A stretch of 64,000 nt of DNA. It comes from a virus. Its lineage: Duplodnaviria; Caudoviricetes. A model generated the notes under the pieces. It did no database searches, had not been told where the DNA came from, and was given only the letters and a program-made list of their open reading frames with translations. Of this stretch, positions 39,985 to 40,341 are shown one piece after another (the first letter of the stretch is position 1; each line of letters starts with the position of its first letter). The stretch is from positions 30,147 to 94,146 of IMG/VR virus record IMGVR_UViG_3300043676_000014. One strand, written 5' to 3'. A program made the translations under genes and the position numbers.

Positions 39985-40102
39985 GAGGCCAATCAACTAG
40001 AACGAACGTAAGAGTGGCAATCGGAATACCCCCTTACGGGGCATCGGCGTTACATGGTGTCGATAACCGAATACCTGGGGCTCGTTCTAGTTGGTTGGCC
40101 TC
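39985..40102 (-). ncRNA. Y-RNA-like RNA 3 (long terminal stem, no tRNA arms)
   Basis: Stem GAGGCCAACCAACUAGAACGAGC/GUUCGUUCUAGUUGAUUGGCCUC, shared CGAGCCCCAG...CUCUUACGUUCG module, adjacent to Ro60. Confidence 0.75.
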
Positions 40103-40128
40103 TGTGTAAAATGCCCTTCGAAAGCAAC

Positions 40129-40263
40129 CGCACGAACATAAGAGCGAAGATCGGGTTTAAGCGCTCTACCAACTGAGCTACATGAAATCTTTCGATCTCA
40201 CGACAGGACTCGAACCTGCGACCTCTTCCTTCAATGGATAACCAAACTTCTGGGGCTCGTGCG
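40129..40263 (-). ncRNA. yrlA: YrlA-type Y RNA (permuted tRNA mimic)
   Basis: T arm GCAGG-UUCGAGU-CCUGU, closed acceptor-like stem with GAAA loop, D arm GCUC-AGUUGGUA-GAGC, all inside the shared terminal module. Confidence 0.88.
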
Positions 40264-40271
40264 ATATCTCG

Positions 40272-40341
40272 AAGAGCGAACGTAAGAGCGACAATCGGAT
40301 TTCATTCATGCAGATAACCGAATGTCTGGGGCTCGCCCCTT
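40272..40341 (-). ncRNA. Minimal Y-RNA-like RNA 1 (~70 nt)
   Basis: Same CGAGCCCCAG-UUCGGUUAUC...CCGAU-CUCUUACGUUCG module with a short loop. Confidence 0.7.

What the first reader, a model, noticed from the sequence alone, without database searches (positions are those of the whole stretch)
39985..40341. Three tandem Y-RNA-like genes of graded complexity directly upstream of a phage Ro60
Seen: three elements share one module, 5'-CGAGCCCCAG..UU(C/U)GGUUAUC-[insert]-CCGAU..CUCUUA(C/U)GUUCG-3', and their outer stems covary. The inserts differ: a short loop (40272-40341), a full permuted tRNA mimic with T arm, GAAA-closed acceptor stem and D arm (40129-40263), and a small hairpin domain within a ~23-bp stem (39985-40102). 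Established: YrlA RNAs have this T-AS-D order, lie next to Ro60/Rsr and occur in some phages. Inference: a modular set of Ro60 adaptors or decoys with swappable effector domains. The two non-tRNA copies may be missed by YrlA models and could define a new Y RNA family.
Basis: partly seen in the sequence, partly recalled or inferred. Interest (0 to 1): 0.85.

Follow-up and report, generated by a model that had tools for sequence, protein, structure and literature searches.

The report
Phage Ro60 with three Y RNAs
A soil phage carries the gene for the ring-shaped RNA-binding protein Ro60 preceded by three small RNA genes that share one docking stem but display different tips; this is a real but largely expected version of the known Ro60/Y-RNA particle, and the same docking stem picks out uncatalogued arrays of such RNAs next to most related Ro60 genes.

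Summary
Three minus-strand elements (40342-40270, 40266-40126, 40102-39985) lie directly upstream of a canonical Ro60 gene (39966-38344) in a complete 94-kb phage genome that has no tRNA genes.

All three share one handle: an 8-bp helix with NCGAGC/GUUCG, a CCCCA internal loop, a 4+U.U+4 helix, then UUAUC. Their cargoes differ: a short loop, a permuted tRNA mimic, and a GNRA hairpin inside a 23-bp stem that ends 18 nt before the Ro60 AUG.

A covariance model built from short-loop relatives finds exactly these three in the window. It finds hits only at Ro60 loci in three whole bacterial genomes. An iterated model gives 322 hits in 160 Ro60 loci, all on the Ro60 strand, with up to 7 per locus.

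Rfam reports nothing at its cut-offs. The middle element scores 35 bits against YrlA (cut-off 69).

Relatives carry the same roughly 2-kb cassette with four modules, and cargo domains are exchanged between handles.

Verdict: a genuine Y-RNA array and a new variant of a known kind. Multi-Y loci are published for bacteria and for Thermus phage phiLo, and this scan has noted similar arrays in other phage and bacterial genomes. Expression, Ro60 binding and function were not tested.

The parts
40270..40342 (-). Y RNA 1, short-loop type. Shared handle plus a 19-nt apical loop, UUAUC-UGCAUGAAUGAAAU.
   Evidence: R1 78.2 bits, E 1e-18. R2 73.2 bits. Fold -22.9 kcal/mol, z -2.3. Orthologues lie first in the arrays of L014, L020, L174 and L183.
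40126..40266 (-). Y RNA 2, a divergent YrlA. The handle carries a permuted tRNA mimic: V region and T arm 40225-40203, 9-bp acceptor-like stem with GAAA loop 40202-40181, U8-A9 and D arm 40180-40163.
   Evidence: R1 52.3 bits. R2 62.6 bits. Rfam YrlA 35.1 bits over model positions 23-87, cut-off 69. The cloverleaf-like fold is -46.3 against an MFE of -47.3 kcal/mol. ARAGORN calls no tRNA.
39985..40102 (-). Y RNA 3, the Ro60-proximal type. The handle core is 40091-39996, extended to a 23-position basal stem. The cargo is a loop plus GNRA hairpin 40042-40028. A duplicated CCGAUGCC (40047-40040) allows an alternative fold.
   Evidence: R1 63.6 bits. R2 62.2 bits. Fold -58 kcal/mol, z -8.4. The long stem is kept in 12 relatives: 90.9% of cells paired and 11 of 23 pairs with compensatory changes. 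Alternative fold -58.0 against canonical -55.3 kcal/mol.
39970..39977 (-). Shine-Dalgarno GGAGAAGG of Ro60, starting 7 nt after the base of the long stem.
   Evidence: Read from the sequence. The stem base lies about 16-24 nt before the AUG in most relatives checked.
38344..39966 (-). Ro60 (Rsr) gene, 540 aa.
   Evidence: Pfam vWA_Ro60 1e-64 and TROVE 1e-34. PDB 2NVO Rsr 3e-120 and 1YVP Ro60 8e-105. Identity to Bradyrhizobium proteins is 86-87%.
40397..40864 (-). HNH endonuclease gene directly upstream of the array. It lies outside the conserved cassette.
   Evidence: phrog_23251 8e-26. Homology to relatives stops at 40338.
40861..41847 (-). RlaP-type pol-beta nucleotidyltransferase gene (RNA-repair context).
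   Evidence: Pfam RlaP 1e-15. phrog_388 4e-84.
41834..42364 (-). HD phosphohydrolase gene.
   Evidence: Pfam HD_4 4e-17. phrog_990 1e-38.

Best explanation
The locus is a roughly 2-kb 'Y-RNA array plus Ro60' cassette (40338-38348) of a tRNA-less phage related to Bradyrhizobium prophages. Three small RNAs are most likely transcribed on the Ro60 strand and cut out of a longer transcript (inferred).

Each RNA has the same Ro60-docking handle. The handle has the layout of the published YrlA stem: an outer helix carrying (N)CGAG (published motif GNCGAA), a 5 x 8-9 nt internal loop with an invariant CCCC(A) 5' strand, a second helix, then YUAY. Ro60 is inferred to bind this handle, mainly through the conserved 5' strand as in known Y RNAs.

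The distal 'cargo' differs. It is an apical hairpin or loop in RNA 1, a permuted tRNA mimic in RNA 2, and a GNRA hairpin in RNA 3. One Ro60 ring could therefore form three different particles that bring different partners to it (inferred). By analogy these partners would be host PNPase or other RNA enzymes for the loop types and tRNA-recognising proteins for the mimic.

RNA 3 carries a 23-position duplex that ends just before the Ro60 ribosome-binding site. That is the size of an RNase III substrate. It probably marks the cut that separates the RNA array from the Ro60 mRNA (inferred).

Shown here: the sequences, the covarying structure, the family membership, the exclusive linkage to Ro60 and its strand, and the cassette boundaries. 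Inferred: expression, processing, Ro60 binding and the partners.
For: Handle structure: in the 14 seed modules 95.5% of cells are paired and 6 pairs show compensatory change. In 106 modules 96.9% are paired and 14 of 16 pairs are compensatory, against 33-48% for slid controls.

Specificity: R1 and R2 hit only the three elements in the 64-kb window and in the 94-kb genome. In three bacterial genomes totalling 18.7 Mb, all 11 R2 hits lie at the Ro60 locus. R1 found nothing in 120 other genomes of that family.

Linkage: 94 of 94 R1 hits and 322 of 322 R2 hits are on the Ro60 strand within 2.5 kb. They occur in 60 of 80 viral and 69 of 80 genomic Ro60 loci.

Layout: the handle has the same layout as the Rfam YrlA stem, and YUAY and GNCGAA are described in PMC4201824.

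Cassette: homology to relatives runs exactly from 40338 to 38348.

Long stem: it covaries in 12 relatives.

Protein: the gene encodes a canonical Ro60.

Precedents: M. smegmatis YrlA and YrlB are processed from one precursor upstream of rsr. Thermus phage phiLo Ro60 binds two upstream Yrl RNAs and host PNPase (PMC12135203).
Against: No expression, end-mapping or binding data exist for this phage. No sigma-70-like promoter or clear terminator was found for the array. The handle motif is CGAG rather than the published GNCGAA. Element 2 scores only half the Rfam YrlA cut-off. For element 3 the predicted MFE is not the canonical handle fold: it lies 2.7 kcal/mol lower and buries the CUCUUAC strand. 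The phage has no RtcB or Rnl2 ligase, so a complete phage-encoded repair pathway is not evident. The A4-based pair counts come from an alignment fitted to the structure.
Confidence: 0.8

Rival explanations
1. Element 3, and possibly element 1, is not a free Y RNA. It would be a cis-acting part of the Ro60 transcript: a Ro60-binding operator in the 5' leader for autoregulation, or a 5' stem that sets mRNA stability or processing. Only element 2 would then be a trans-acting Y RNA.
For: The 23-position stem ends 18 nt before the AUG and 7 nt before the SD. This tight spacing is kept in relatives and the stem covaries. The cassette always keeps this module next to Ro60. Element 3 can adopt two folds, one of which hides the conserved handle loop strand.
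Against: The same handle occurs downstream of Ro60 and far from any start codon in other loci, for example L015:5329, L016:5277 and L028:4021. In M. smegmatis the rsr-proximal YrlB is a stable Ro60-bound RNA. Complementarity between the stem's 3' strand and the SD/AUG region is no better than for other gene starts. The two roles are not mutually exclusive.
Confidence: 0.15
2. Elements 1 and 3 are decayed duplicates of the YrlA gene that lost the tRNA domain and have no function.
For: All three share a handle and are adjacent, as expected after tandem duplication. Array composition varies: the window lacks the T-arm-only module that close relatives have.
Against: Short-loop and Ro60-proximal modules are conserved in position and order across relatives whose Ro60 is only 54-87% identical. 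They show compensatory changes and give the highest model scores. In 16 of 53 short loops UUAUC has a full 5-bp complement in the loop, against 3.4 expected.
Confidence: 0.03
3. The region is the remnant of a phage tRNA gene array or an integration-site relic, and the tRNA-like piece is a broken tRNA gene.
For: In relatives the cassette sits inside large tRNA arrays. Element 2 contains canonical T and D arms.
Against: ARAGORN and Rfam find no tRNA in the window or in the whole genome. The T-before-D order with a closed acceptor stem is conserved in many loci and is the YrlA hallmark. The handle halves flank the tRNA-like part precisely.
Confidence: 0.02

Closest known systems
YrlA (Rfam RF02553; S. 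Typhimurium, M. smegmatis, mycobacteriophages; Chen et al. 2014, PMC4201824)
   Same: Element 2 is encoded just upstream of Ro60 on the same strand. It has a 5'/3' stem with an internal loop, YUAY, then V region, T arm, closed acceptor-like stem and D arm. Canonical T- and D-loop nucleotides and G15/C48 are present.
   Different: The score is 35 bits against a cut-off of 69. The 5' motif is (N)CGAGCCCC rather than GNCGAAN0-1G. Both strands of the handle are conserved, whereas only the 5' strand is recognisable in the Salmonella and Mycobacterium RNAs. The acceptor-like stem has 9 bp.
YrlB (S. Typhimurium, M. smegmatis) and Yrn2 (D. radiodurans): second, non-YrlA Y RNAs (PMC4201824)
   Same: Elements 1 and 3 are additional hairpin-shaped RNAs beside the tRNA-like one. 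They share the putative Ro60-binding motif and lie between or next to YrlA and rsr. The M. smegmatis RNAs are cut from one precursor. The T-arm-only modules in relatives resemble M. smegmatis YrlB.
   Different: The published RNAs were found only by immunoprecipitation and had no detectable homologues. Here a handle-only model finds hundreds.
Thermus phage phiLo Ro60 with Yrl1 and Yrl2 (NAR 2025, PMC12135203)
   Same: A phage-encoded Ro60 with several Y-like RNAs directly upstream. Those RNAs bind the phage Ro60 and host PNPase in vitro.
   Different: That locus has two RNAs defined by a CGAA motif in a bulge and no tRNA mimic is described. Here there are three RNAs, including a YrlA-type mimic and a long-stem module abutting the RBS.
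Metazoan Y RNAs
   Same: A long basal stem carries the Ro60 site and a variable distal domain recruits other proteins. Several paralogous Y RNAs exist per genome.
   Different: There is no sequence relation. The animal RNAs are separate Pol III genes, not a co-transcribed array, and have no tRNA-like domain.

Membership tests
YrlA (RF02553) - element 2 | Within 4 kb of a Ro60/TROVE gene and on the same strand | tested here: met
   The element ends at 40126 and Ro60 starts at 39966, both on the minus strand.
YrlA (RF02553) - element 2 | T arm, closed 'acceptor' stem-loop and D arm in the order T-AS-D, with tRNA-like conserved nucleotides | tested here: met
   The Rfam alignment covers model positions 23-87 with GGUUCGAGUCC and GUAGCUCAGUUGGUAGAGC. 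The constrained fold shows all three arms.
YrlA (RF02553) - element 2 | 5' motif GNCGAAN0-1G | tested here: inconclusive
   The sequence is CACGAGCC (GGCGAGCC in element 1). It matches NCGA but has G where the motif has the second A. It sits in the equivalent place in the outer helix.
YrlA (RF02553) - element 2 | YUAY starting the V region | tested here: met
   UUAUC follows the second helix in all three elements. It is UUAUC in 85 of 106 modules.
YrlA (RF02553) - element 2 | Score at or above Rfam's gathering cut-off (69 bits) | tested here: not met
   The score is 35.1 bits. Relatives score 35-44 bits. I therefore file it as a divergent YrlA-type RNA, not as an Rfam-defined member.
Bacterial Y RNA (any) - elements 1, 2, 3 | Stable ncRNA physically bound by Ro60/Rsr | not testable with these tools
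   This needs Northern blots or RNA-seq and Ro60 co-immunoprecipitation.
Bacterial Y RNA (any) - elements 1, 2, 3 | Conserved structured RNA exclusively linked to Ro60 genes | tested here: met
   All 322 R2 hits are on the Ro60 strand in 129 of 160 loci. In whole genomes the hits lie only at the Ro60 locus. The structure covaries.
tRNA - element 2 | Cloverleaf with anticodon arm, recognised by tRNA finders | tested here: not met
   ARAGORN finds none. Rfam tRNA scores 15.5 bits against a cut-off of 29. The order is permuted and there is no anticodon arm.
Ro60/Rsr protein | TROVE HEAT-repeat ring plus C-terminal vWA domain | tested here: met
   Pfam PF05731 and PF25045 match. There are full-length matches to 2NVO, 9NEN and 1YVP.

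The most novel reading that the evidence does not exclude
Handle-plus-cargo arrays may be the normal state of bacterial and phage Ro60 systems. On this reading 3-7 co-transcribed Y RNAs share one docking stem and their cargo domains (loops, T arms, permuted or whole tRNAs, paired hairpins) are shuffled between handles by recombination. That would give one Ro60 ring a programmable set of partners. In phages it could serve as a counter-defence or RNA-surveillance kit, for example tRNA-part decoys for anticodon nucleases or capture of host PNPase. The Ro60-proximal long-stem module would double as the processing or autoregulatory site of the Ro60 mRNA.
Probability: 0.25. Interest if true: 0.7.

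Novelty: new variant of a known kind. Interest (0 to 1): 0.45.

Why it matters
Only a handful of bacterial Y RNAs have been defined experimentally. The non-tRNA ones (YrlB, Yrn2) could not be found by homology, so it was unclear how many Y RNAs a Ro60 has and what they share. This locus and its relatives show that a handle-only covariance model recognises tRNA-like and non-tRNA Y RNAs alike. It is highly specific for Ro60 neighbourhoods and reveals arrays of up to seven RNAs with exchangeable cargo. That gives concrete, testable candidates for what Ro60 is tethered to, and a defined 2-kb phage cassette small enough to express and dissect. For this particular window the arrangement itself is what current knowledge would predict.

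Tried and rejected
1. Rfam at gathering cut-offs found nothing in the window. In E-value mode only the YrlA core of element 2 appeared, and the other weak hits (HPnc0260, mir-598, L19 leader, CRISPR-DR36) are chance-level.

2. I tested whether the 3' strand of element 3's long stem sequesters the Ro60 SD/AUG as an anti-SD switch. Duplex energies were no better than against 49 other gene starts (fractions 0.02-0.7), so I dropped the idea.

3. Promoter and terminator scans around the array gave no sigma-70-like promoter on the minus strand between 42600 and 39966 and no called terminator. A weak hairpin plus U-run at about 40372-40345 was seen by eye only.

4. The phage genome has no RtcB or Rnl2 RNA ligase, so the idea of a complete phage RNA-repair operon is not supported.

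5. The search for related loci with the single protein reached only one viral relative. An alignment query was needed.

It succeeded on retry.

8. The 2020 review PMC10870794 is not held.

Full report
**What is there**

The finding lies on the minus strand. Reading 5' to 3' on that strand, three elements follow one another.
- Element 1 spans 40342-40270.
- Element 2 spans 40266-40126.
- Element 3 spans 40102-39985.

After element 3 come 7 nt, the SD GGAGAAGG (39977-39970), and the ATG of a 540-aa ORF (39966-38344). That ORF matches Pfam vWA_Ro60 (1e-64) and TROVE (1e-34). It matches D. radiodurans Rsr 2NVO at 3e-120 and Xenopus and human Ro60 at about 1e-105.

The window is part of a complete 94,146-bp virus record with direct terminal repeats. 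It carries terminase, portal and major head genes. The nearest Ro60 proteins (86-87% identity) are from Bradyrhizobium genomes.

**The shared module**

The motif CGAGCCCCAG-N4-TYGGTTATC occurs exactly three times, against 0 expected in shuffles. Each copy is matched downstream by CCGAU-N4-(N)CUCUUA(C/U)-GUUCG. The module folds as follows.
- An outer helix of 8 or more bp containing CGAGC/GUUCG.
- An asymmetric internal loop, with CCCCA on the 5' side and 8-9 nt on the 3' side.
- A helix of 4 bp, a U.U pair, and 4 bp (UYGG/CCGA).
- The sequence UUAUC.

Between the three copies both helices change while staying complementary. The variable 4 bp of the inner helix read GACA/UGUC, GAAG/CUUC and GGUA/UGCC. 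The outer helix reads GGGG/CUCU, GCA/UGC and AGAA/UUCU next to the constant part.

Exact copies of the 5' motif also occur in nine other viral contigs, often two or three per contig.

**Test as a family**

I aligned 14 short-loop modules: element 1 plus 13 from other contigs, excluding elements 2 and 3 (A2). With the hand-drawn structure, 95.5% of cells pair and 6 of 16 pairs show compensatory change. Slid controls give 31-52%.

The covariance model R1 built from this alignment finds exactly three hits in the 64-kb window. They score 78, 64 and 52 bits (E 1e-18 to 1e-11). For elements 2 and 3 the cargo is modelled as a large insertion.

I then collected 160 Ro60 loci, 80 viral and 80 genomic, each with 2.5-kb flanks. 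R1 gives 94 hits in them, all on the Ro60 strand. A further 35 hits occur in the metagenome loci and the motif-derived viral loci.

An alignment of 106 hits (A4, which is fitted to the model) has 96.9% paired cells and compensatory change in 14 of 16 pairs. The iterated model R2 gives 154 + 168 = 322 hits, again all on the Ro60 strand. They fall in 60 of 80 viral and 69 of 80 genomic loci, with up to 7 per locus.

Specificity holds up.
- R2 finds only the three elements in the window.
- In three whole bacterial genomes (18.7 Mb) all 11 R2 hits lie at the Ro60 locus.
- R1 found nothing in 120 other genomes of the family of the Bradyrhizobium host. That search used stricter filters.

**The cargoes**

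Element 1 has a 19-nt loop. In 16 of 53 short-loop modules UUAUC has a perfect 5-bp complement in the loop: GAUGA or GAUAA, and GAGAA where the motif is UUCUC. Shuffles give 3.4 +/- 1.8. This type is therefore usually one long hairpin. Element 1 itself has only a 4-bp version (AUGA).

Element 2 has, in order:
- the V region AGGUC;
- a T arm, GCAGG-UUCGAGU-CCUGU;
- a 9-bp stem closed by GAAA;
- U8-A9;
- a D arm, GCUC-AGUUGGUA-GAGC.

This is the YrlA order. Rfam YrlA aligns to it at 35.1 bits, E 1e-5, against a cut-off of 69. The cloverleaf-like fold is within 1 kcal/mol of the MFE. ARAGORN and the Rfam tRNA model do not call it.

Element 3 has a loop plus the hairpin GCCCC-GUAA-GGGGGU. Its outer helix extends to 23 positions with one mismatch (fold z -8.4). 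A duplicated CCGAUGCC allows an alternative fold 2.7 kcal/mol below the canonical one, in which GUAAGGG pairs with the conserved CUCUUAC strand. I cannot say which fold forms.

**Relation to published Y RNAs**

The handle has the same layout as the Rfam YrlA stem. That stem has a 6-bp helix with GGCGA, a 5 x 8 internal loop, a 7-bp helix, and then CUA(C). Chen et al. [quoted passage not shown] Here the motif reads (N)CGAGCCCC.

The same paper reports several relevant points.
- M. smegmatis YrlB carries a T arm, and it is cut with YrlA from one precursor upstream of rsr.
- Such RNAs 'eluded bioinformatic discovery'.

Thermus phage phiLo Ro60 binds two upstream Yrl RNAs and host PNPase. So a multi-Y locus upstream of a phage Ro60 is a known kind of arrangement.

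I did not find three things in the held papers:
- arrays of 3-7 modules;
- a handle-only model;
- the long-stem module abutting the RBS.

The library is limited, and the 2020 review was not available. Rfam covers none of the three elements at its cut-offs, and the YrlA-type modules of relatives also stay at 35-44 bits.

**Comparative anatomy**

Close relatives include L014 (the same sequence as the Bradyrhizobium sp. C9 locus L094), L020, L174-177 and L183, with Ro60 84-87% identical. They carry four modules in a fixed order: a short loop, a YrlA mimic, a T-arm-only or two-hairpin module with a long stem, and a Ro60-proximal module with a long stem.

The window lacks the third module. blastn homology runs from 40338 to 40114 and from about 40100 to 38348, with nothing beyond either end. 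The conserved unit is therefore exactly the array plus Ro60.

In relatives this cassette sits inside large tRNA gene arrays. Here it follows HNH, RlaP-type nucleotidyltransferase and HD genes. The phage has no tRNA gene at all and no RtcB or Rnl2 ligase.

The 23-position stem of the Ro60-proximal module is kept in 12 relatives. There, 90.9% of cells pair and 11 of 23 pairs show compensatory change, against 28-42% for slid controls. In most of the loci checked its base lies roughly 16-24 nt before the AUG.

Cargo exchange is visible in alignment A5.
- The two-hairpin cargo GCCGGCC..GGAA..CCGGC / CCGRUCGCAAGAUCGG sits in the position-3 handle in L014.
- In L095 the same cargo sits in the Ro60-proximal handle.
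- L020 and L095 carry a T arm in the position-3 handle.

**Mechanism, with what is shown and what is inferred**

Shown:
- three structured, covarying RNA modules of one family;
- exclusive linkage to Ro60 and to its strand;
- a conserved cassette with sharp boundaries;
- modular cargo.

Inferred from the named precedents:
- The RNAs are cut from a transcript that continues into Ro60. No promoter or terminator was detected.
- Ro60 binds the handle.
- The cargo decides the partner. This might be PNPase-type enzymes for loops and tRNA-recognising proteins for the mimic.
- The long duplex is an RNase III site that frees the array from the Ro60 mRNA.

The neighbouring RlaP nucleotidyltransferase and HD genes fit the RNA-repair context proposed for TROVE proteins in phages (PMC7824862).

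The main rival is that element 3 acts in cis, as an operator or a stabiliser. That reading is compatible with the data and not exclusive of the main one. An anti-SD switch was tested and not supported.

**Verdict**

It is a new variant of a known kind. This scan has already noted similar Ro60-linked RNA arrays in other phages and bacteria, so this window is one more instance, though with a canonical Ro60 and a clean cassette. Interest is 0.45.

Noticed in passing
L018:1064-1207 (IMGVR_UViG_3300032770_000011): One handle in a related phage encloses a complete, non-permuted tRNA-like sequence in D-then-T order. Rfam tRNA scores 41.8 bits at 1109-1179. This shows a third wiring of tRNA parts into the same handle.
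   Followed up: partly
window 1-64000 and whole genome G000: The phage has no tRNA genes, whereas related phages and prophages embed the same Ro60/Y-RNA cassette in arrays of 5-12 tRNA genes on the same strand (L014, L016, L018, L020, L023, L096).
   Followed up: partly
window 40020-40047 (minus strand): Element 3 contains two copies of the 3' half of the inner helix, CCGAUGCC at 40047-40040 and CCGAUUGCC at 40024-40016. Its hairpin loop region GUAAGGG is complementary to the conserved CUCUUAC strand. This gives two folds within 2.7 kcal/mol and could be a conformational switch or simply a recent insertion.
   Followed up: partly
A4, short-loop modules from many loci: UUAUC after the handle co-varies with a GAUGA-like pentamer in the loop (UUCUC with GAGAA). 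A full 5-bp complement occurs in 16 of 53 loops against 3.4 expected, which suggests an apical helix not included in my model.
   Followed up: yes
window 42393-43494 (minus strand): Two overlapping ORFs (191 and 235 aa) match the two halves of one PHROG transposase family (phrog_506). This is probably a frameshifted or split IS-type transposase next to the HD gene.
   Followed up: no
window 40345-40372 (minus strand): A weak interrupted hairpin followed by UUUUU lies between the HNH stop and element 1. Relatives also have a U-run just before their first module. The pattern scan did not call it a terminator.
   Followed up: no
L015:5329-5408, L016:5277-5357, L028:4021-4325, L043:4737-5471, L063:4746-5219: In some phages the handle modules lie downstream of Ro60, or on both sides, still on the same strand. 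Position upstream of the gene is therefore not obligatory.
   Followed up: no
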